64,000 nucleotides of DNA from Psilocybe cubensis (Eukaryota), in NCBI GenBank assembly GCA_017499595.2, contig CM039003.1:2046001-2110000 (forward strand). The letters are read 5' to 3'. The notes beneath the pieces were generated by a model. That model did not search any database. It worked only from the letters and a program-made list of their open reading frames with translations, and was not told where the DNA came from. Position 1 is the stretch's first letter. The number at the start of each line of letters is the position of its first letter. Both the position numbers and the translations under genes were made by a program. Below, piece after piece: positions 19,410-30,789 of the stretch.

Positions 19410-22400
19410 CTACTCTGACCTCCCATAATGTAATTGTATATAATACAAATTTAGCTCTACATATTAAATTGATAGAATAATCTGATACTCAAACTTCAAC
19501 TTCAATTTTGTTCAGGCTCATGTGCCAGCAGCCAGTAACACTTTGGTAATGGCACTAGCAAATGATTTAGCCTCGGCGGTCGGCAGAACATTGACTGTAC
19601 AGTGTCGGAGATTGTAAAGCTACAAAAGGTGTCACAGAGGTAACGGAGAGTTATGCTACGAGGAAGGGACCCCGATTAACAAAAACGGACTCAGATTCGA
19701 CGATCTGCAAGAAAGTTAGACCATGTTTGAGGCGGCAACCGTAAAGCAGTCCACTTCCGGCCAGCCGTTTCTTTACTATACTTACTCAAGCCACTTACTT
19801 ACAAAGGTCAATTCCGATTCAAAAAAAAGATGCATGCAGCGAAGAACGCGAAAGAAGTGCTTCCGAGTCCGAGTACTTCCTTGATTGAATTCACAGCCGT
19901 TGTACGTTAGCCCCGGTGATGGTCGTTTTCGTTCGTGAGCGAGTTGGTGAGGCTAGGTCTAGGCCCTTTTGTGAGTGAGGGCATGGTGCAGTGGTTTGCA
20001 CAGCCCAACTGGCCTTTGCAATCGGGTTTTCCGAGGGGTGGAGTTGGCTGTTGCGGTGGGCGCTTTCGTAAATACAATAAGCAAGTGATGGGATCCCAGT
20101 ACGCATCGCAACCGCACTGGAAACTAAACACTGAGACGCGGCGCGGAAGGAAAGGGCGGTTTGGTGTTTGGTGTTTTGGAGAGCTGAAATGAACGCGACA
20201 CCGAAACTAGAGGCGTATTATGGAACATCATGATGTACTTTCTTTTTCGACTCCGGTTAGACGGTGATGGTGACGGTGGTGGTGGTGATGGGCCACTACT
20301 ATGCTTAGATTTAGAATCATCAGAGGTGTGTGTTTTAATTATTGACCCTCGAATTCAAGGTTACCAAACCATGCCCTCCCAAGGGCCAGTCGAGGCCTCA
20401 AGGAGGGGGACGGTGTTCTTGAAGCCCGATATTGGGCAGTAATGAACCCAACCACGGTGAATCTCTTCGCGCTTTACTCTCTTGCTGCTTCACGCGCCCC
20501 GGCCAGGCATGAGAGAAAGCTTATAATCTACATGCACCCCGGAGCTCTATTAACAGAATGCATATCGCTTTTTTGTTTTAGCTTAATTGAAACGATCCGC
20601 CCGCTGCCAGGTACTTCGCGTCCCCTCGTCAGCCGTGTAATTAGAAACTTATGCGTATATTTGATAGTTTAACCTATTTTTTTTCTCCTTCGTCGTGTGT
20701 GTGGTACGTTTTCTTAATTAGCCACCCTTTGGAGCCAATGCATGCACCGCCCTTCCGTTGCTAGTCGCTTTTTTGCCTTTCCTCGCTTGCGCGATCGGTG
20801 AACCACCTAAGTATCAGGCCTAGAGGTTCGGTGAGCCACGGCGACTCGAAGAAAGTGAATTAATGGCCATAGCAGCAAGGATTTTGGGGACTCGTCGGAC
20901 AGGAAGCTTGAAGCCGACCGATCGACCCGACCGAGTCGAACTGAGAGGGGGCTTGTTTCTTCGAATTCCAAAGTAGTGTAAATTCGCTCTTCCCGATTCG
21001 AAGCGGGTATGGACCATATGGGTCCCTATTGTACGTCGCGCCTAAGAGCATCCCGCTAATTAAATGAAAGAGAAAGGACGCGCCGGCGTGGTGCGTCCCA
21101 CTCAACATCATGCCAATGGATCCAAATTACTATTCCCCGCCGCCACCTCTAAATTGGATTGGACCGTGACCGCACTGCACACATGCCACACACATAGAAC
21201 AACCTCTCTCAAGTGCGGCGGCGGTCGATCTACTTCAATTTTATGCATTGTGCTGTAGCACACCTGCCCATCGCACTGGCGTTGACCATATACAGTAAGC
21301 ACGTAAAAAGCGGGCGGACAGAAACCTGCAAGCCAGCTGTACTAAGCTTTGCAAGAGCAAGTTGGACGGGCGCGGACCACGTCTGTTATTGAGCCACCAG
21401 TCATACTTGTCCCAAGAAGGCGCAAAAAAGGGGGTTCTCCTCAATGAAGAGCGATGGGGCCCATGCCCGCACCCGAGATACACAGTTATGGATAGATTGC
21501 GATGGCGGAAATTGCACCCAGCAGCAAGCAACAAGCCCAATTGAAGAACGCGGTGCCTTCCTTCTTGTGTCTCTTTCTTTCCCTTCAATAAAGCAAAGTA
21601 TAATGATAATCGTGATGCTCTGGCTTTGCAAAATTCGTCGTACTATTACGCAATAGAGTCTTGCTTCTCCCCGATATTAGGACTTGAATCTGGCTAAAAG
21701 TAGTAAGAAAGGCGTACTCTTGAAGAGTATTCTTGAGAGTAATTCAGGACCAAAGAAGACGAAGGAAGGAATTTCAGAAGAAAGCCTACTCCTTTCCCTC
21801 GGCATTCAAGGTCGAATACCACTCCCATTACCTAGGCCAAAAGATTTCCCGGAATTGTGATAATACAACTCCTGCTATCTATTTCTACTCGTCTTTTTGT
21901 TTGAATGGCCACCAATTGTATTGTTACAACCAACGCCTATAGTATATATATCACTACTAGTACTAGCGCCATCTGATCAGGGAATACACTAAGATGGAAC
22001 ACTCTTCTAACGTTCCTTGAATGCATTCTAACTTGTTGATTTCTCCAGATCTGACTGTACTGCGGTAAGCATAATCTATTTATATTATTACCGAGCTCGA
22101 ACCGCCGTGTACGACATCAGCGGAATGCAAGTAAATAATTATCTAAGTAGGAGGGCGCCTTACTGATTAAGATAGGAGAAGATTAACTATACAATTCAAG
22201 TGCGGATAGCAATCTATGCAAACCGCTAGGTACTAGATGAAGATAAATCAAAGCGCCCATGGCGAGGAGTGTGTGATAGTTTTGTAGCATATAAAATAGG
22301 GCGGTGTCTATGTCCAAACCAATAGACGCCCGCACTGGATGGGTATGATAAGGTAATCGTAAGCGAGCCAGTATTTCCAATTGGTCGGGTAATCTTCCCA

Positions 22401-22587
22401 GACTCTACACCGAGTACCTCGGATCATGAGAGTGGGTGAGAGGGTATCATATAGTTGTGTGCAGAACAAGGGGATGATAACAAGGAGGCGGTCACGGTGT
22501 CTGAAGACACCATGATGTACATGGTCTACGTGGAGGAAAACATCAGATATCGGTAGAATCAGAGTCGGTGGTATACTATGCCCTTTG

Positions 22588-25500
22588 CTATACTGGCAAT
22601 GAAAAGGAAGGCGGGGATATTGTGGGAGTTTCAGAGGAGCGTCCCAAAGGATACAACACCGATGCCGAACTGTAACTTGAAGCTCGTGATATATTCAAAG
22701 GCATTTGGTTTCCTAAATGTGGCTCCGATTTCACGAAGGGCCGTGTGACCACACTGAGAGGATGAACGTTAGTTAATTACTTTACAATGGAATAGTGATA
22801 CGGGAAAAAGGAAAGTATAGCGGAGAAATAGGACAATATTGGCTTTCGGCACGGACCGCGAGTGTGAGTAGGGAATTCAACAATCTCTCGCATAGATTGC
22901 AATCACAAGTTGAGCTGCAATGATATGCTGGAAAACGAATGACGGAATATGACCATGGGGCGCGTATAGACGCCGAAATGAAATAAACACTTTGTTCAAT
23001 TGAAATACTCACTTGACTTTCTTTTCGATGACCATCGTGGGGTCAATCGAGAAATCCAGGTCCTTCACCAATACATAGAGAAAGATTTTTATCCTAGAGC
23101 CTCGGAATTAGCAACCATTCACAAACGCAATTCCCAGAAAGTAGCAATAAGGCACCAATTCAACCACCGCCCTGATAGTTTTAGCAATCAGGGTGGTGCT
23201 CGCATTAGGGAGGTTTGGATAGAAAACATCAAAAAGAAACACAAGTGCGAAGAAGTTTATTGGCTCCGAAGATCATATTGAAATATCGGAGATGAGATAA
23301 CGGGATGGGAATGCGATCGGAGGCCTTGATTCCAACTCCGCGAGCACTGATCATCAGACAAGCCGTCCACAGCTAAATCAGGCTGAGCCTTGCAAGAAAT
23401 TGGAGTCTTTGGCCAGGGTAGAATACGATTCGCAAAATCTCCAACATGGGCATAGCCATGTAAGTATATGAACTCTGGCCCGCATCCAGGATAGTATCCA
23501 TAGACCATTCATCTCTCTGGTCACATAGCAATGCTAAATCGCAGCTGAAATCCAGAGCGACCCCATGTACATGAATGCTGAGCATCATGCGCGCCTACAT
23601 ATGGCTTGCATGGGACGCCGACGACGCTATTCCCTAAATAAGGCAAAAAGGCGCATCCGTCGCAATCAAGGACATACAATAATCGATGCGCCTCGATCGC
23701 TCATTTCAAACTGAACCGGGGCGGGCTGCGATCTACCCCGCCAAGCAGTCATCCAAACTAGCCACGCGCCATCGTAGATGGCGGAAGCAAATTGTTCCCC
23801 AAGTTGGGGAATGTCTGCCGCATTGGGCAAATTCCACTAAACATCAATAGTGGACAATGCGCAATGTGCAATGCAGCGCACTGTGCCACTGTGTGCTTGC
23901 GAAGCAAATCAAAGCCCAAAATAAACATAAGCAAATGGAAGATTGAGGAACAAAGACAGATAACAAGGACTAGGAACTGGGTGGGAAGAAATCATCCCAG
24001 TTTCTCCTGAAGACATGATGTATTGCTGCTGAGCGAACAGATGCGCAATACTTCATCGGCCTTCACCTTTCCTCACTTGCCCTGATGAGAAAACTAGGAG
24101 AACAGATATTGGGTCTCTGTATCTCCGCAATAATTTCGCACATACCAGAACGTGCGTAATGAAAGCAAAAGTCCGCAGAAAGGCCCCATGCGCACAATTG
24201 CACAACTAGGCAATCCGAAACCCGCCTGTTGTAGCCCCACTCGATACAAGAGAATGAAAGATGATATCATGCTGAATGAAAGTATGAAAGACGTGAAGAT
24301 TAAGGCAAAAAACCATATCACGTCATGAAGCCAAAGAAACAAAATAGATGAAAGAAGGAAAGCAAAACTGAAGTAGAAAAAAAAGCGAGTAAAAGATGAC
24401 TCACTCAATCAGAGCGAATTTGTAGCCAATGCAAGACCTATTCCCACCGAGTGGATTACCATTCAGGAACGTCAACGTATTGGAGTAGAGTCCCGGAATT
24501 GCACGAGCTTCTTGGGGGGGTGAAGCCCAGCGTTCTGGTCTGCGGTGAGACAAGCAGAAGAACAAAAGTTAGTTAATTCATCAGATGATGCAGTAATACG
24601 ATATCAGAAACACGATAACGGCAGGAAAGAAAAACACAGGAAAGGTTGAAGTGGTGTGTAAAAATGAATAGCCTATGGTGAGATAGATCTGAATGAAATA
24701 ATACAAATGACCTAAGCCCGAAAGAAGGACTTCAAGAAGGTTTAATAACGGGTAGAGTGGATGAGGGGTGAGAGAAGTTGGATGGGCTGATAAGACGCTT
24801 TTTTCCAGTTCGGGCTGCTTGCTCCAGAGTGACTAGCGGCATGCCCTTGTTGTTAGGTGATCATACTGCTATGCAGTCAACGGCACAGCAATATGTTACC
24901 ACATGATGATGAGGCTAAATTGTTGTTCGGAAATAGAGCACCGCGGTGAATCGAAGTGGTACAATCACAATTGTTTCTATCACTCCGACGATACCAAGCA
25001 GCACGAAAAGGGAAATCTCTCCCTTAAAACTAGCACCGTTTCATCTCCGTTGGAGAAAGCCACTAAGTGAAGTGAAAAATGGAATGGTAAAAGCAAGATA
25101 GAGAGAAAGGTTGTTACCACTGATACAGTGGTAAAGATAGCCAAGAGGAATATGGAGAAATTAAAACCAGAGTGCCAAGTGATATATGGGCTCAATTGAT
25201 TTCATATTCCGTTCGCCATTCTCCAGGAAACGAAACAACTCGCTCGTGAACCGACCGACGGTCGGATTCTATTGAGTCAATTCATTAAGCTATGGCATGA
25301 CAGAATCAAACCATCAGCCCATGTAATTTGCGATGACATATTTGACGCGCGCAAATCACCTGTCCCCGCGTCGCGTCGCAGCACCACCACACACTACACA
25401 AGCAACCCATACACACGCACCACATATATCAAGCACTTGGAGCAAAAAAAAGAGAACGAAAGACGAACGGAAAGAAAAATAAAACACCACAAAAAAGGAG

Positions 25501-28500
25501 AAAAAAGGCATAAATAAACGCGAATAGACTTACCTAAAGAGCTTCGCATCTTCGCCCCAGAACGCCTCGCTCTTGTTGATCGCTTGGATCGGCACACTGA
25601 TTATGTCCCACTTGCGTACGGAAATGGTAGACCTTCTATTCCCATGGATATCCACATTCTGGTCCATGGTGGTGCGACCCCGGTCATCAATAGCGTCGAC
25701 CTGTGCGTTTGACTTGCGAGGTAGCACTGCCTGGACAGGGATTTCGTCCTCGTCGCGCATGCACACTCGCATCGTGTTTGTAACCGGTGCGTGTACTCTG
25801 AGAGACTCACGAACGACCCAGTCCAGATAGCCGCATCGAGCAATCCGCTCTGTGAGATCCTCGTGATCGCTCTTCGGAGGTGGAGACTGCTGCGTCCGAT
25901 CGGCAGCATCAAGTTTTCTCAACTCGACTCGTAGCTTTTCTTGCGCTGGCCGATTATTAGCGAGCGCATATAGACACCATGTTAGGGCCGAAGACGTTGT
26001 TTCGTGGCCAGCAGCTAGGAACGTAGATATTTGGCTTAGAACCTCATCTTCCGACATTTGTTGCGACGCGTCCGATGATAAATTGGATTGGACTGAATGC
26101 AAGTGTGAAAAAAGTTGTTTGAGTCAGATCCGGTAGTGTAAATTTTACCAAACCAACTCACTGAGAACACTCAGCAGGTCTCTTCCACGCAGCTCTTTAG
26201 GACCTTGTGACCGCGCTGTGGATTGATCCTGCAAAGGGCCGATCTTTGCCGGTTCGTGTAAGTATGAGTCTCGCTCATGCTGGATTGCCTTGCGTTTTTC
26301 ATCTATCAGTTCAAGGCCGATTCGGCGCATCGTCGCCTTGGCTTGCGCCATCGCAGCATTATTTCGTCTCTACGAAAAGGAAAGGAAACAATGTGGTCAG
26401 TAAATGCCGTTATGCCTTTAAACATAAAGAGGTTTGGAAAAAGTTCAGAACAATAACCCGAAATGATTGAATTACCAAAAGGTTGGCAGTGATGTGGCAT
26501 AATCAGAAAATCAAAAGTAACAATTTGACCGTAAATGCAAGTATCCACATGTCAAAGATAACCGCCAGTGCCTAATGAAATGATATAAAAAGAAAGCAAC
26601 ACAACAAAACCCGACAACTCTCCACTAACGCCGCGAAGCCAAGAAGATATTCCCGTAATAAGCGCCTCGTGCTGTTTCGCGCCGCAGGCGGCGTGTGCGT
26701 CTGTGGCATCAAACAAGGGAAACACCCGTTGAAATCGCCAAAGCATGCCCAGCTTGAGAATGAACACTCTAAAATAACATAAAAAACGAAGGGAAAAGCG
26801 AAGGGAAAAATCATGAATCACAGATCATGGATTCACAATCACCAACACACGATGATGTAAAAAAGTTCCATAGAGTCCCAGAAGCTGATTGATGTGAAGC
26901 CATCTTAACCAACCAAAAGCCTGCCCGCCAACACGACAGTCTGACCCATCATGGAGATTTTGATTCGTCATCTTTCGGGATTGGGGAGCCAAACAAACTC
27001 GGGAGAAGACAAGGCGTAAAACACAGAAAGAAAAATCAAAACCGAACCAGGCTCGTTCAGCTAGAATTGGATTATTTGGATTTCCAAAATTTGGCATCAA
27101 ATCAAAGTGATCTGTTTTTGGCATCCGATCTATGGAACGGAGCCCACATCGCAGAGATAAGAATATAAGAAATATAGAACTCTGGAGCGAGGTAGGGCAT
27201 GGGTTGCATAGTATTTTTGATGTTCTCCAATCCAGTCCCATGTCCAACTTTGTCAGAATCAATCAAAATCGAGCCCAAAAAAGAGTTAATGCTCTGAAGG
27301 TATAAACCCACATGAAAAATAGAGAAGAAAGAAAAGAAAGTATACATCAGAACACACACTCATGAAGATGCGAAAATCAGATCAAGACCAAGATTTAGAG
27401 GATCGAAAATAAAATCAGGCTAACGACCTGGTTTGCTATGACCCTATCAACCATCTTGTGGTCTCAATCAAAACAGAAAGTGTGTATGAAGAAATCCGGA
27501 GTTGAAAAGAGATTCGTCGATCAAGAGTCAAGACATGACGGAATCTGTGCTCTGCAACTCGTTTTCTGCGCACGAGAATGAAAGAAGCGGTCACTTGTGA
27601 ACCAAAAAAACGCGCAAGGCCAAAAAGAAAAAAAAAAAAAAGTAAAATGCATGCTGCGCATCGAGTGAAGAATATTACTTGAAGAGCGTAGAACTTCAAA
27701 GCAGGAACAAAGGATCGAGTCGTTCCTTCAACGCAGGTTGAGGTTGAGATTGCCTAAAAATAGACGCAACGGAAGCAAAATGCACGGGCCTTGGCAATGT
27801 AATTGGACCGAGGTTTGCCGATGAAAATGATTGGATGGCAAGTCCAAACTCCACAACGGGGCCAGCAACGGTGAGCCACCGCATCAGAAACAAGACTCCG
27901 CGGCGTATACAAAGCTGCGACAGGCATACGACAGACGAAAGAGCGCGACGTGATAAGAACAAAAATATAAATGGCCTTTGCGCAAAGCAAAGAAGTCGCA
28001 AAGGTGAAGAAAAAGGAAGGAATGGAAAAAATAACGGTCAACTCACAAATCGTCGTAGGAACGGAAACCAAGCTTGGAGGATCGTCATGACACGAAACTT
28101 GCGGGCGGTGGAGAAGATGACGCTGAAGGCGCGTGCGAGTTCATTGGAATCATCTGTCAGCGCGTTGAATGCGTAGCCAAAACCTAGTATATTTTGATAT
28201 GATTATATTGGAGGTCTATTAAAGTACAAGTAAAAAAAGAATACGAACCTGCAAGGCCTATTACATCAAGAGTTGCGCGGCCTAGCCAAACGAGGACGTC
28301 GATACGGGTGATAGAGTTTTCGCGGCCTGGATCAAACGAAGCTGAATCAACCTCGGTAAGCCAAATGTCGCGTAGCTAATGAGGGCGAATAAGCCGTGCT
28401 CATTTACGAAAAGACATTGGGAGGTTACCTCGGTAGCTTTGTCCCAGAAGATGGGAGACAAGGATTTGATATGCCCAGCGGAGAACGCTGGAGCCTGAAA

Positions 28501-29027
28501 TGGGTTGAAAGTCACGTTGTGGGAAAATGATGATAAGATAAAAATACAAGGGGAACAACAGCCTGCCACTAACCAAGATCTTGCGCTGGAATATGTCAAA
28601 AAATGGGACATAGTCATGGTAATTGGAGCAGACCTACCTGGCGTCTGTGATCAGCGCCCTCGACCACGAGGAGGCCGTCGTGACCTGCAGCCATACTAGC
28701 GAGACTTTCCCTGACGAAGTCTGGTTTGGGGTAGTGATACGCGTTGCCGAGGATATGTGCAATGGCGACGGGGTCGGTGGTCATAAGACGACAGCCGCCA
28801 ATGAAGCCGCGATAGACGAAGGTGGTGCCGTAGGAGTTGACCCAGTTTGCGATGAGATTATTGTTTTCCATGTCGTGCATCTGCTCGAGATTGCCCATGA
28901 AGAAGGAGGGCGAAGGAGGGCCGGGAAGACGACGGAGGGGCGAGCATAGCTGGCGGAAGAGGAGGAGGAGAAAGTCGCGGAGAAGGGCGAGGGCGACGAG
29001 GAGGACAAGGAAGACGAAGAGATACAT
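22588..29027 (-). CDS. Cytochrome P450, 10 exons (29027-28638, 28585-28574, 28494-28429, 28375-28249, 28183-28047, 26369-26162, 26092-25534, 24539-24405, 23093-23013, 22753-22588), 626 aa
   Basis: N-terminal TM helix plus LPGPPSPS hinge, I-helix AAGHETT, ESLR (ExxR), FRPERW and heme Cys in GNRSCIG. All nine introns are GT-AG, and the exons sum to 1881 nt in one frame. Confidence 0.92.
23094..24404 (-). other. Giant spliceosomal intron 8 of the P450 (1311 nt)
   Basis: GTGAGT donor, GCTAAT branch site and TAG acceptor. Splicing restores [14 protein letters not shown] (L helix). Confidence 0.85.
24540..25533 (-). other. Giant spliceosomal intron 7 of the P450 (994 nt)
   Basis: GTAAGT donor, ACTAAC branch site and CAG acceptor. 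Splicing restores FR|PERW. Confidence 0.88.
26370..28046 (-). other. Giant spliceosomal intron 5 of the P450 (1677 nt)
   Basis: GTGAGT donor, CTGAC branch site (26396-26400), polypyrimidine tract and TAG acceptor. Joins [16 protein letters not shown] in phase 0. Confidence 0.85.
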
Positions 29028-29096
29028 TCGGCTATTCAAAAACACAAGTGGACGGATTCATATACAAACTTGTTCCGAGCAGACCGATCAACTGAC

Positions 29097-30789
29097 ATGT
29101 CTGCTGTCCCCGACGAGTCCGACTCGCTGCTCACACTCCCTCTCACAGAACAACTCCTTGCCACTCATCCAAATGCCCTACAAACACCCGTTACCCACGT
29201 TCGCCCCATAGATCTTGTCCACGCCTACTGCACCGGCTCCAGTCTCGCCCTCCCTCGCCATATCCGCACCTTCGTCCACGCCGTTCGCACCCAACAGCTC
29301 CCCCGCGAGCCACTCAACTCCTTCCATGTCCGTCCCTTGCCTTTCTCCCAGGGGATGTCGCCGAAAAAGGCCCATGAGGTCTCGCGCATGGCGTCCTATA
29401 TTCTCCGTCTCGTCCGCCATCTAGATCAACATGCTCTACACATCGTCGACATCGGCGCAGGCCAGGGCTACCTCACCCGTGCCCTCAAAGCATATCTCCC
29501 CCATGCGCACATCCTCGCCCTAGATGCTGACAACGAACAAACTCTCGGCGCACAGCGATGGGAAAATCGCGTTCTTCTAAACGCAAATCCGTCGATCGAT
29601 CACAAAGTAATTTTTATATCGCCGGAGTCCCTTCTGAAAGCGCTTGATGATTGGGTTGGCCCCCGTCCAAATCCTGTACCAGTCCTGTTTGTCGCACTCC
29701 ATGCCTGTGGATCGCTGACACCCGATATCTTGCGCGCATATATCCATGCAACTCACAATCCAAATACAAATTGGCGCACAGCAGGCCTCGTTGCTGTCGG
29801 TTGCTGCTACAATCTTATGAACCCATCAGGTAATAAACTGATCGCTTCACTTGTATTTTGGATAACTCACAAAGTTGGCCTCAGATTTCCCAGTCGCAAC
29901 TCGACACCTCCCAATAGCCGCGTACCATCTCGCCGCCCAGATACCGTCTCAATGGCTGACATCGATAGATCCTCCTACCTTCGACCCTTCTGTAGAGCTT
30001 TCAATTCGTAAAGTGACTTGGCGTGCTCTCCTAGGAAAAGCACTTCAACGTGCCGTTCCAGATCCCAACTATCGGGAAAGTGCCAACGACGCCGCGATAA
30101 AATCAGCGACTGTTCCAGCACGATGGTCCCGCCGTCCAGAAATGACTGAAGAAACCCTGTCCACGTTGGAACCTCAGCTAAAATTTGACGCCCCAGAATC
30201 GGGAACTGGACTCACAGAGCCATTACTCCGTCTAGGACGCCTTCGCGACTCCGCGTATGTCTCTTGGAACACTTTTCTGCGTGCTGCTGAGCAACGCATG
30301 GGTGTTCTGTTCCACCCCGATGACTTTGAGGCAGAAGGCAAAGGCGAAAAGGCCGAGATACGCGATGGAGATAATGTCAATGAAAGGGGGAAGGGTGGCA
30401 GCGATGATCTGCGCCCAGGCCGAGACACCACCCTCGAGAACGACCTCGCTGCCCACCACGTTCTCCGCTGTCTCTTGGGCCCCGTGATAGAATCTGCCAT
30501 TCTGCGGGATCGTTTGACTTGGGTTCGACGCGGCCTCTGTAATCGCGTACAGAGCGATCTCGATCATTCAACTCGAAGACCAATTCAAACCCTTCAACAA
30601 GCTGGGGCCACAGAACCGACAGAACAGGGATCAGACGCGTACGCGGAAAGAGATTGTGGGGACGCACAAAGAGCAGAACTCGTCAATCTGTTCGACCAGG
30701 CAACAGGTAGCGGGCGTAATGTTGCGATTGTCGTAGCACCGGTTCGATATTTTCCCTCGACGAGTGCCGAAGATGGAGTCGAGAGTTGA
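29097..30789 (+). CDS. METTL25/RRNAD1-like methyltransferase (Methyltransf_32); intron 29830-29884
   Basis: MSPKKAHEV, IVDIGAGQGYL, LHACGSLT, VGCCYN and LFDQATGSGRNVAIV motifs. Confidence 0.85.

What the first reader, a model, noticed from the sequence alone, without database searches (positions are those of the whole stretch)
22588..29027. Cytochrome P450 split by three giant introns (1677, 994, 1311 nt) in a genome of ~55-nt introns
Every other intron I traced in the other genes is about 45-110 nt. Here three introns are roughly 20-30 times the typical length and a fourth is 259 nt, yet all have clean donor, branch and acceptor signals and the 626-aa frame is intact. They are pyrimidine-rich on the sense strand and show no transposase/RT ORF or terminal repeats. 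The heme-Cys exon (135 nt) is isolated between two of them. Fungal splicing mainly relies on intron definition, so these introns may need special handling such as structure-assisted or recursive splicing. They might also host ncRNAs or gate enzyme production through retention or intronic polyadenylation. Gene predictors would probably truncate this gene.
Basis: partly seen in the sequence, partly recalled or inferred. Interest (0 to 1): 0.75.

Follow-up and report, generated by a model that had tools for sequence, protein, structure and literature searches.

The report
Ancient long introns in mushroom P450
A cytochrome P450 gene of the mushroom Psilocybe cubensis really is split by three introns of 1 to 1.7 kb that are cleanly spliced out, and related mushrooms have long introns at exactly the same three places, so this is an old, inherited gene layout and not an error or a transposon scar.

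Summary
The minus-strand gene 29027..22588 has 10 exons and 9 GT..AG introns of 52, 79, 53, 65, 1677, 69, 994, 1311 and 259 nt. It encodes an intact 626-aa P450. That protein is 100% identical over aa 1-499 to a truncated 501-aa P. cubensis database model and collinear with the 630-aa P. cyanescens orthologue.

Contigs of two runs guessed to be RNA join exons across all three giant introns. An independent strain's DNA contig carries the introns.

The main new result comes from 22 metagenome loci of related Agaricales-like fungi. At the same three codon positions their introns are 235-1323, 489-1128 and 783-1220 nt. The neighbouring introns stay at 48-67 nt in most loci.

I found no transposon domains, repeats, Rfam families, conserved ORFs, recursive sites or 5'-3' zipper complementarity.

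Interiors of the first two giant introns evolve about as fast as fourfold-degenerate sites. The 1311-nt intron is more conserved and holds short islands shared by five lineages, including a near-invariant 17-mer, although synonymous sites are saturated.

Best reading: ordinary spliceosomal introns that are anciently long, with embedded cis-elements of unknown role.

The parts
22588..29027 (-). Cytochrome P450 coding region (start codon to stop codon): 10 exons, 626 aa
   Evidence: Spliced translation. tblastn of the orthologue P0002. Pfam PF00067 on exon 7, E 8.1e-21.
28638..29027 (-). Exon 1 (390 nt)
28574..28585 (-). 12-nt micro-exon (RKIL), flanked by introns of 52 and 79 nt
   Evidence: The X11 contig joins 28495 to 28638 with 11 letters in between. 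The residues are present in P0001 and P0002. Frame confirmed.
28429..28494 (-). Exon 3 (66 nt)
28249..28375 (-). Exon 4 (127 nt)
28047..28183 (-). Exon 5 (137 nt)
26370..28046 (-). Giant intron A, 1677 nt, phase 0, after aa 244
   Evidence: X10 contig joint 'skips 1677', side 134; X11 loose ends agree. GTGAGT..TAG. Long at the same position in relatives.
26162..26369 (-). Exon 6 (208 nt)
25534..26092 (-). Exon 7 (559 nt; I-helix AGHETT, ESLR)
24540..25533 (-). Giant intron B, 994 nt, phase 2, after aa 499
   Evidence: X11 contig joint 'skips 994', side 31. GTAAGT..CAG. Long in relatives.
24405..24539 (-). Exon 8, 135 nt, heme-binding loop ([19 protein letters not shown]). Both flanking introns are phase 2, so skipping the exon would keep the frame.
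23094..24404 (-). Giant intron C, 1311 nt, phase 2, after aa 544
   Evidence: X10 contig joint 'skips 1311', side 48. GTGAGT..TAG. Long in relatives.
23013..23093 (-). Exon 9 (81 nt)
22754..23012 (-). Intron D, 259 nt, phase 2; 229-384 nt in relatives
22588..22753 (-). Exon 10, coding part (166 nt including the stop). Transcript contigs run on to about 22255.
23208..23381 (-). Conserved module in intron C, the only intron interior of the window alignable to relatives
   Evidence: blastn of the window's intron C, positions 1024-1197, against L003, L002 and L009; alignment A2.
23216..23232 (-). 17-mer TTGATGTTTTCYATCCA. All positions are identical in 5 lineage groups except the one Y (C/T) position. 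It lies 89-148 nt before the 3' splice site.
   Evidence: It occurs once in the window and once in each of the 6 loci that hold intron C, always inside intron C.
23334..23344 (-). Island TCGCGGAGTTG, complementary to the branch-site-proximal TAATTCCG
   Evidence: The complementarity is not beyond shuffled controls.
23783..23792 (-). Island TTTGCTTCCG in intron C
27770..27779 (-). Second copy of TTTGCTTCCG, in intron A
   Evidence: Found in 6 of 19 intron units, against at most 3 in shuffles.
23094..23113 (-). Conserved 3' end of intron C (GCTAATTCCG..YAG: branch site plus TCCG)
24728..24881 (.). 154-nt contig of run X10 lying inside intron B (depth 5.4); unexplained
   Evidence: record 2. No fold signal on either strand. 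No Rfam match.

Best explanation
These are genuine U2-type spliceosomal introns of an intact P450 gene in Psilocybe cubensis, and they are removed in the ordinary way. Each has a consensus donor (GTGAGT or GTAAGT), a CTRAY-type branch site 20-35 nt before a YAG acceptor, and a T-rich sense strand with few AG|GT decoys.

Their length is not a recent accident. Long introns at exactly these three codon positions and phases were already present in the common ancestor of several Agaricales lineages and have stayed long while their sequence turned over.

Most of introns A and B behaves like neutral filler. Intron C carries short sequence islands under purifying selection. I infer that these islands are cis-acting elements for this gene and that they set a floor on how far the intron can shrink. 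They may act at the DNA level (regulatory sites) or at the RNA level (splicing control around the isolated heme exon).

Shown: splicing, intactness, positional conservation, lack of transposon or ncRNA signatures, and island conservation. Inferred: that the islands are regulatory, and that they or some need for length are why the introns stay long.
For: Gene model:
- The spliced CDS is 1881 nt, 626 aa, one stop, with all 9 introns GT..AG.
- The P0002 orthologue is fully accounted for by the exons, with nothing missing at the junctions.

Splicing and presence in DNA:
- Contigs of X10 and X11 hold 0.25 and 0.23 of the words, matching the exon fraction. They join across 1677, 994, 1311 and 259 nt, and across 69, 65, 53 and the 142-nt pair of introns around the micro-exon. 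All joints have CT..AC ends on the + strand.
- One 79-kb contig of X7 spans the whole stretch, and its 4 listed indels all lie in giant introns.

Relatives; the loci were picked by exon peptide patterns, not by intron size:
- Intron A is 235-1323 nt in 9 loci (7 distinct sequences). It is more than 1319-2208 nt in 5 further loci and more than 343 nt in a sixth.
- Intron B is 489-1128 nt in 8 loci.
- Intron C is 783-1220 nt in 6 loci.
- None of these is under 235 nt.
- The short-intron positions are 48-67 nt in 8, 9 and 13 loci.
- The intron boundaries sit at identical codon positions.

Sequence constraint:
- Window against relatives: fourfold sites are only 0.36-0.40 identical, i.e. saturated. 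Yet 11-mers shared by 3 or more lineage groups number 11 in intron A and 11 in intron C, against 0-0.1 in shuffles.
- In three closer pairs, intron C identity is 0.939, 0.835 and 0.818 against fourfold sites at 0.881, 0.719 and 0.731. Introns A and B are roughly equal to fourfold sites.

Decoy sites and database models:
- AGGT on the sense strand occurs 4 times against 12.6 expected. GTRAGT occurs 0 times against 2.1 expected.
- Of 120 database homologues, 10 end at the B or C position and 4 start at the first Met after A.
Against: - X10 and X11 are only guessed to be RNA, and they are assembled contigs. No single contig covers the whole mRNA, and minor isoforms would not be seen.
- The intron A islands shared by other lineages are absent from the window, with 0 matches allowing up to 3 mismatches. 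For P. cubensis, only intron C has demonstrable constraint.
- Intron lengths vary up to about five-fold between lineages, so length itself is not tightly conserved. Neutral persistence of an ancestrally long state is not excluded.
- Identity over aligned intron columns from a global alignment is somewhat inflated relative to codon sites.
- L017-L022 deviate. Their 'short' positions measure 166-272 nt, and they never reach exon 6.
- The relatives are unnamed metagenome contigs. Their taxonomy is only inferred from best protein matches of 58-76% identity.
- The function of the islands is untested.
Confidence: 0.6

Rival explanations
1. The introns are purely neutral relics. The ancestor happened to have long introns here, and weak deletion pressure has not yet shrunk them. 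The conserved islands are only extended splicing signals or chance survivals and regulate nothing.
For: - Introns A and B evolve at about the fourfold-site rate.
- Lengths vary widely between lineages: A 235 to more than 2208 nt, B 489-1128 nt, C 783-1220 nt.
- No structure, ORF or known RNA was found.
Against: - The 17-mer is identical across 5 lineage groups (apart from its one C/T position) although synonymous sites are saturated.
- Intron C is more conserved than fourfold sites in 3 of 3 close pairs.
- None of the complete orthologous introns at the three positions has fallen below 235 nt, while the neighbouring introns stay near 55 nt.
Confidence: 0.2
2. The architecture is a splicing switch. 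The 135-nt heme exon, isolated between long phase-2 introns, is included or skipped (or the flanking introns are retained) under regulation. The intron C islands act on the pre-mRNA, for example by pairing with or masking the branch-site region. This would gate production of active enzyme.
For: - Exon 8 is symmetric (phase 2 on both sides, 135 nt), so skipping it keeps the frame but removes the heme cysteine.
- The island TCGCGGAGTTG is complementary to the conserved branch-proximal TAATTCCG. It ranks 1st-3rd of about 940-1240 windows as partner of the intron tail in the window, L002, L003 and L005. L004 and L009 have other complements that fit their own changed tails.
Against: - The best duplex energy is no better than with shuffled tails in 4 of 5 intron C sequences (z +0.2, +0.7, -0.9, -0.9). 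Only L009 stands out, at z -2.8.
- RNAalifold gives -3.1 kcal/mol with a positive covariation term, and no compensatory pair in that helix.
- The contigs laid show only the fully spliced joints.
Confidence: 0.1
3. One or more of the introns hosts a non-coding RNA (a snoRNA-like or other stable intron-derived RNA), and that is what is conserved.
For: - Intronic snoRNAs are common in fungi (from general knowledge, recalled).
- The 17-mer contains UGAUGU, which resembles a C box (my reading).
- A 154-nt contig of X10 lies inside intron B.
Against: - 0 Rfam matches at E<=1 in the gene region and in 10 related loci, and 0 at gathering score in the whole window.
- By eye I found no conserved D box or terminal stem downstream of the 17-mer.
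- Folding z-scores are +0.66, +0.92 and -0.83.
- The 154-nt piece lies in a part of intron B with no cross-lineage conservation.
Confidence: 0.07
4. The long introns are decayed transposable-element insertions or an assembly artefact.
For: No call gave evidence for this. It is listed only as a common cause of outsized introns (from general knowledge, recalled).
Against: - No repeats of 40 nt or more in the 64 kb window.
- No terminal repeats at the intron ends.
- 0 of 79 intronic ORFs reach a Pfam cut-off.
- Relatives have long introns at the same positions.
- The sense strand is uniformly T-rich in all lineages.
- Nine runs from 3 studies hold more than 0.8 of the words, and an independent contig spans the locus.
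Confidence: 0.02

Closest known systems
Ordinary U2-type GT-AG spliceosomal introns of Agaricomycete genes
   Same: Same donor, branch and acceptor signals. They are removed in transcripts. Position and phase are conserved among orthologues.
   Different: They are 13-32 times longer than the other five introns of the same gene (52-79 nt). They have stayed long at the same three sites in several lineages.
Conserved non-coding elements and intronic regulatory modules of animal and plant genes (general knowledge, recalled)
   Same: Short islands of near-perfect identity sit in otherwise freely evolving intron sequence, in collinear order.
   Different: Here they occur in a compact fungal genome and in a metabolic P450 gene. 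No binding factor or activity is known, and I cannot tell whether they act as DNA or as RNA.
Recursive splicing of long introns in Drosophila and vertebrates (PMC6110457; abstract seen in the search listing only)
   Same: Both concern long introns in a gene whose other introns are short.
   Different: There are no juxtaposed AG|GTRAGT ratchet sites, 0 in the three introns. AGGT is depleted, not enriched.
Stem-assisted ('zipper') splicing of long yeast introns (recalled, not read here)
   Same: Both are long introns in a fungus thought to rely on intron definition (PMC2397502, passages read).
   Different: There is no excess complementarity between the 5' 200 nt and the 3' 250 nt in 20 long introns (17 from related loci, 3 from the window); z ranges from -1.5 to +1.9.
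Intron-encoded snoRNAs of fungi (recalled)
   Same: Both involve a conserved short element within an intron, about 100 nt upstream of the 3' splice site.
   Different: No Rfam match, no conserved D box or terminal stem, and no fold signal.

Membership tests
Cytochrome P450 (Pfam PF00067) | Significant match to the P450 profile | tested here: met
   Exon 7 alone scores E 8.1e-21, 74.8 bits against a cut-off of 22.8. All listed homologues carry PF00067.
Cytochrome P450 (Pfam PF00067) | Heme-thiolate loop F..G.R.C.G, ExxR, PERF/W and the I-helix AGxxTT (motif definitions recalled) | tested here: met
   AGHETT at aa 341, ESLR at 409, PERW at 501 and [15 protein letters not shown] at 524. The loop is 5 residues longer than the classic spacing. 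The same form is seen in the four full-length orthologues read (P0002, P0004, P0005, P0015).
U2-type spliceosomal intron | GT..AG ends with a branch motif upstream of the acceptor | tested here: met
   All 9 introns are GT..AG. The giant ones have GTGAGT or GTAAGT donors and CTGAC, CTAAC or CTAAT 20-35 nt before the acceptor.
U2-type spliceosomal intron | Precise removal in transcripts | tested here: met
   Joints skipping 1677, 994, 1311 and 259 nt in X10 and X11 contigs. Caveat: the RNA nature of these runs is a guess, and these are contigs, not reads.
U2-type spliceosomal intron | Position and phase shared with orthologues | tested here: met
   The same junction residues and GT..AG ends appear in up to 9 loci per intron.
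Transposable-element insertion | Terminal repeats or target duplications, TE protein domains, other copies | tested here: not met
   Copy number in the whole genome could not be tested, because no genome is held.
Transposable-element insertion | Absent from orthologous sites of relatives | tested here: not met
   Relatives have long introns at the same sites.
Recursively spliced intron | Internal AG|GTRAGT ratchet site | tested here: not met
   0 sites in each of the three introns.
Recursively spliced intron | Splicing intermediates or a saw-tooth read profile | not testable with these tools
   Only assembled contigs were available.
Intronic snoRNA host | Covariance-model match, or C/D or H/ACA boxes with a terminal stem | tested here: not met
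   0 Rfam hits. No conserved D box or stem seen by eye. Basidiomycete snoRNAs may be poorly covered by Rfam (my caveat).
Intronic snoRNA host | Discrete stable RNA from the intron | tested here: inconclusive
   One 154-nt contig lies in intron B in one run. Its strand and ends are unknown.

The most novel reading that the evidence does not exclude
The four long introns around the heme-binding exon form an ancient regulatory module of this Agaricales P450. The conserved intronic islands are the 17-mer, the TCGCGGAGTTG element complementary to the branch-site region, and the repeated TTTGCTTCCG. In this reading they control whether the heme exon is spliced in, or how much mRNA is made. Selection for these elements, or for splicing delay, has kept the introns 10-30 times longer than the genomic norm for roughly the age of the Agaricales. 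The age is my estimate and was not computed here.
Probability: 0.2. Interest if true: 0.65.

Novelty: new variant of a known kind. Interest (0 to 1): 0.45.

Why it matters
Fungal introns are usually treated as short, fast-evolving spacers recognised by intron definition. Here one gene keeps three kilobase-scale introns at fixed positions across several mushroom lineages, and at least one of them holds strongly constrained non-coding islands.

This gives a concrete, testable case for two questions: how a short-intron fungus handles long introns, and whether fungal introns can carry conserved regulatory elements.

There is also a practical consequence. The layout systematically breaks automatic gene models:
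- The P. cubensis database entry lacks the heme-binding C-terminus.
- 14 of the 120 listed homologues are cut at these sites.
- 30 of the 120 lack the 12-nt micro-exon; 10 of those 30 also lack the flanking exons 1 and/or 3, i.e. they are N-terminally truncated.

P450 inventories of mushrooms will therefore miscount or mis-call this family.

Tried and rejected
- Whole genome for repeat counting: none is held.
- RNA runs: no listed holder is on record as RNA. X10 and X11 are guessed RNA.
- Parts of the introns without cover in X10 and X11, including the intron C module, are no evidence either way. The same holds for the depth differences along the gene.
- Rfam: 0 matches at E<=1 on 22000-29600, 0 on 10 related loci (57 kb), and 0 at gathering score on the whole window.
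- Pfam on 79 intronic ORFs: only sub-threshold chance hits.
- tblastx between orthologous introns: nothing better than E 0.012 in a tiny database, and no conserved frame.
- Reading the 17-mer as a start codon or micro-exon: the downstream frames are not conserved (by eye).
- 5'-3' zipper complementarity: no signal. This was a crude whole-segment duplex test.
- Pairing of the conserved island with the branch-site region: attractive by rank but not beyond shuffled-tail controls. No covariation.
- Folds of the 154-nt intron B piece and of the intron C module: z +0.66, +0.92 and -0.83.
- The intron A islands of other lineages (GACACTCCCGCCGGCCGAC and CTGATCGACGG.GCTA.CGG) are not in the window.
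- X12, a relative whose exons align at 72-88% identity: one 2135-nt contig holds exon 8 and exon 9 plus 1906 nt that does not align. This implies at least one long intron there too. The table was cut, so the split between the two introns is unknown.
- Literature: four searches found no paper on conserved long introns in Agaricomycete nuclear genes or in this P450. I read only passages of 10.1101/374199 and PMC2397502. For the other papers I saw the search listing only.
- My first two frame-joining scripts were faulty. They were corrected.
Full report
**What is there.** The window region 22588-29027 holds a minus-strand cytochrome P450 gene.
- A search with its largest exon returned 195 proteins at E<=0.001, of which 120 are listed.
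- The best hit, P0001, is a 501-aa UniRef entry named Psilocybe cubensis. The next, P0002, is a 630-aa P. cyanescens protein.
- tblastn of P0002 on the window accounts for every part of the orthologue in ten exon blocks. No residues are missing at the three large gaps.
- Joining the exons by coordinate gives 1881 nt, 626 aa and a single terminal stop.
- The product has AGHETT, ESLR, PERW and the heme loop [15 protein letters not shown]. It is 100% identical to P0001 over aa 1-499 and 82.8% identical to P0002 over aa 28-626.
- The nine introns are 52, 79, 53, 65, 1677, 69, 994, 1311 and 259 nt. All are GT..AG, with consensus donors and CTRAY-type branch motifs.

**Are the introns removed?** No run is on record as RNA.
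- Two runs, X10 and X11, hold 0.25 and 0.23 of the sampled words of the 7-kb stretch. That is about the exon fraction.
- Their contigs join exons across the 1677-nt gap (X10, 134 nt on the shorter side; X11 loose ends agree).
- They also join across the 994-nt gap (X11, 31 nt), the 1311-nt gap (X10, 48 nt) and the 259-nt gap.
- The short introns are joined too, including a joint that carries the micro-exon letters. All joints have CT..AC ends on the + strand.
- These are assembled contigs, so minor isoforms, strand and levels cannot be read.
- On the DNA side, nine runs from three studies hold more than 0.8 of the words.
- One 79-kb contig of X7 spans the whole stretch. Its four listed indels (1, 10, 2 and 9 nt) all lie in giant introns.
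- The introns are therefore real genomic sequence in more than one isolate.

**Annotation.** P0001 stops two residues after the exon 7 boundary, at the 994-nt intron.
- Among the 120 listed homologues, 5 end at this position and 5 end at the next long-intron position. Another 4 begin at the first methionine after the first long-intron position.
- No other C-terminal truncation point was seen.
- 30 of the 120 lack the micro-exon residues. Ten of those 30 also lack the flanking exons 1 and/or 3, so they are N-terminally truncated models and not micro-exon annotation misses.

**Relatives.** A scan of metagenome contigs used two exon peptide patterns, so it was blind to intron size.
- It gave 116 pattern matches. 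Of these, 25 encode a relative, in 22 distinct loci.
- By best protein match, the loci resemble Galerina/Flammula-like, Phlegmacium-like and Mycena-like fungi at 58-76% identity (names).

Exon-wise tblastn gave the following intron lengths:

| Position | Window | Relatives |
|---|---|---|
| After aa 244 (intron A) | 1677 nt | 641, 558, 1323, 588 (twice), 408 (twice), 235, 372 nt in 9 loci |
| After aa 505 of P0002 (intron B) | 994 nt | 489, 519, 780, 588, 598 (twice), about 1120, 1128 nt in 8 loci |
| After aa 550 (intron C) | 1311 nt | 1125, 1026, 783, 1220, 1213, 1217 nt in 6 loci |
| Last intron (D) | 259 nt | 229-384 nt in 6 loci |
| Three short-intron positions | 53, 65, 69 nt | 48-57 nt (8 loci), 48-57 nt (9 loci), 53-67 nt (13 loci) |

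- For intron A, five further loci (L017-L021) run 1319-2208 nt past exon 5 without reaching exon 6. A sixth, L022, runs 343 nt past it.
- L017-L022 deviate at two of the short positions, with 223-272 and 166-181 nt.
- L001 is intronless across the last three junctions. It is presumably transcript-derived.
- The boundaries are GT..AG at the same codon positions. The one exception is the 5' end of L011's intron B, which my script set wrongly.
- Synteny with the divergent upstream gene is also kept.
- A relative in run X12 has exon 8 and exon 9 on one 2135-nt contig, together with 1906 nt that does not align.
The long state is ancestral.

**How the introns evolve.** Between the window and the relatives, fourfold-degenerate sites are only 0.36-0.40 identical. 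Neutral sequence should therefore be unalignable, and most intron interior is.
- In closer pairs (L002/L003, L002/L005, L003/L005), fourfold identity is 0.881, 0.719 and 0.731.
- Intron A identity in the same pairs is 0.885, 0.786 and 0.724.
- Intron B identity is 0.922, 0.727 and 0.712.
- Intron C identity is 0.939, 0.835 and 0.818.
- A and B are thus roughly neutral and C is constrained. Identity over aligned columns of a global alignment is somewhat generous.
- 11-mers shared by three or more lineage groups number 11 in A, 0 in B, 11 in C and 0 in D. Shuffles give 0-0.1.
- In the window only intron C shares islands with relatives. They lie in a module at 23208-23381.
- The first island is the 17-mer TTGATGTTTTCYATCCA at 23216-23232. 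It is identical in five lineage groups except at its one C/T position, and lies 89-148 nt before the 3' splice site. It occurs only in intron C across 187 kb of held sequence.
- The second island is TCGCGGAGTTG at 23334-23344.
- The third is TTTGCTTCCG at 23783-23792. It recurs in intron A at 27770-27779 and in intron A of another lineage. It is found in 6 of 19 intron units, against at most 3 in shuffles.
- The 3' end of intron C (GCTAATTCCG..YAG) is also conserved.
- The intron A islands of other lineages are absent from the window.

**Tests of special explanations.**
- *Transposon relic:* no repeats of 40 nt or more in 64 kb, no terminal repeats, and 0 of 79 intronic ORFs at a Pfam cut-off. 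The sense strand is uniformly T-rich (T 0.30-0.40, A 0.15-0.24) in every lineage.
- *Hidden coding sequence:* tblastx found no conserved frame.
- *Known RNA families:* none.
- *Recursive splicing:* 0 AG|GTRAGT sites. AGGT occurs 4 times against 12.6 expected and GTRAGT 0 times against 2.1 expected. This looks like decoy avoidance, not ratchet sites.
- *Zipper stems:* duplex z-scores run from -1.5 to +1.9 in 20 long introns.
- *A helix between TCGCGGAGTTG and the branch-site region:* RNAalifold proposed it. It ranks 1st-3rd among about 940-1240 windows in four sequences.
- *Control for that helix:* its energy is not better than with shuffled tails in 4 of 5 sequences, and there is no covariation. 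I therefore report it as inconclusive.
- *The 154-nt X10 contig inside intron B (24728-24881):* it has no fold or family signal and remains unexplained.

**Interpretation.** The introns are ordinary spliceosomal introns with strong signals. Nothing in the sequence calls for an unusual splicing mechanism.
- What is unusual is their history. Three positions (four, counting the 229-384-nt last intron) have stayed long in several Agaricales-like lineages, while the neighbouring introns of the same gene stayed near 55 nt.
- Intron C also contains elements under clear purifying selection.
- I infer that these elements are cis-acting for this gene and help to keep the intron from collapsing.
- Whether they work as DNA sites or on the pre-mRNA is open.
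- Whether the isolation of the in-frame, 135-nt heme exon between long phase-2 introns is used for regulation is also open.
- Neutral persistence of introns A and B is a serious alternative.

**Comparison and novelty.** The gene is a regular member of the P450 family, and the introns are regular U2-type introns.
- They do not meet the tested criteria for transposon insertions, recursive introns or snoRNA hosts.
- The nearest analogy for the islands is the conserved non-coding elements of animal and plant introns (recalled).
- Four literature searches found no description of position-conserved long introns in Agaricomycete nuclear genes. I read only passages of two papers.
- I rate this as a new variant of a known kind and of moderate interest. 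It is useful as a test case and as a warning for P450 annotation, but it is not a new mechanism on present evidence.

**Limits.**
- No whole genome was available.
- The relatives are unnamed contigs.
- The RNA nature of X10 and X11 is a guess.
- Only contigs were laid, not reads.
- Short introns elsewhere in the window were checked only by five unverified frame-joining candidates of 50-79 nt.
- The typical Agaricomycete intron length of about 55 nt is from general knowledge.

Noticed in passing
window 28574-28585 (-): A 12-nt micro-exon (RKIL) sits between introns of 52 and 79 nt and is supported by a transcript contig. 30 of the 120 listed homologues lack these residues, including Galerina (P0005) and Gymnopilus dilepis (P0015); 10 of those 30 also lack the flanking exons 1 and/or 3 and are simply N-truncated. 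Where the rest of the protein is complete, a missing micro-exon is probably an annotation error.
   Followed up: partly
L009:3353-3454, L015:695-771, L017:3762-3786 (intron A of relatives): Two islands are shared by distant lineages in intron A: a 19-25-nt GACACTCCCGCCGGCCGAC and CTGATCGACGG.GCTA.CGG. They are partly inverted repeats of each other (my reading). Both are absent from the P. cubensis window.
   Followed up: partly
window 24728-24881: A 154-nt contig of run X10 lies wholly inside the 994-nt intron. It has no Rfam match, no fold signal and no cross-lineage conservation.
   Followed up: partly
window 22091-22611: Transcript contigs cover the 3' UTR region down to about 22255, and another covers 22091-22242. 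In X11 a separate 350-nt contig (22262-22611) stops just inside the coding part. This may be a second, overlapping transcript downstream of the P450.
   Followed up: no
window 28638-29800: One transcript contig in each of X10 and X11 runs from P450 exon 1 through the 70-nt spacer into the divergent upstream gene (ORF from about 29098, + strand). This suggests overlapping 5' ends or a shared promoter region. The neighbour is syntenic in relatives.
   Followed up: no
L017-L022: A group of six related metagenome loci has exons 1-5 of this gene, followed by 1.3-2.2 kb (0.34 kb in L022) without exon 6. It also has longer gaps (166-272 nt) at two normally short intron positions. Either the introns are even larger there or the gene is decaying.
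   Followed up: no
L001: A 1559-nt metagenome contig encodes aa 315-604 of a relative with no introns at the last three junctions. It is presumably transcript-derived sequence in a metagenome collection.
   Followed up: no
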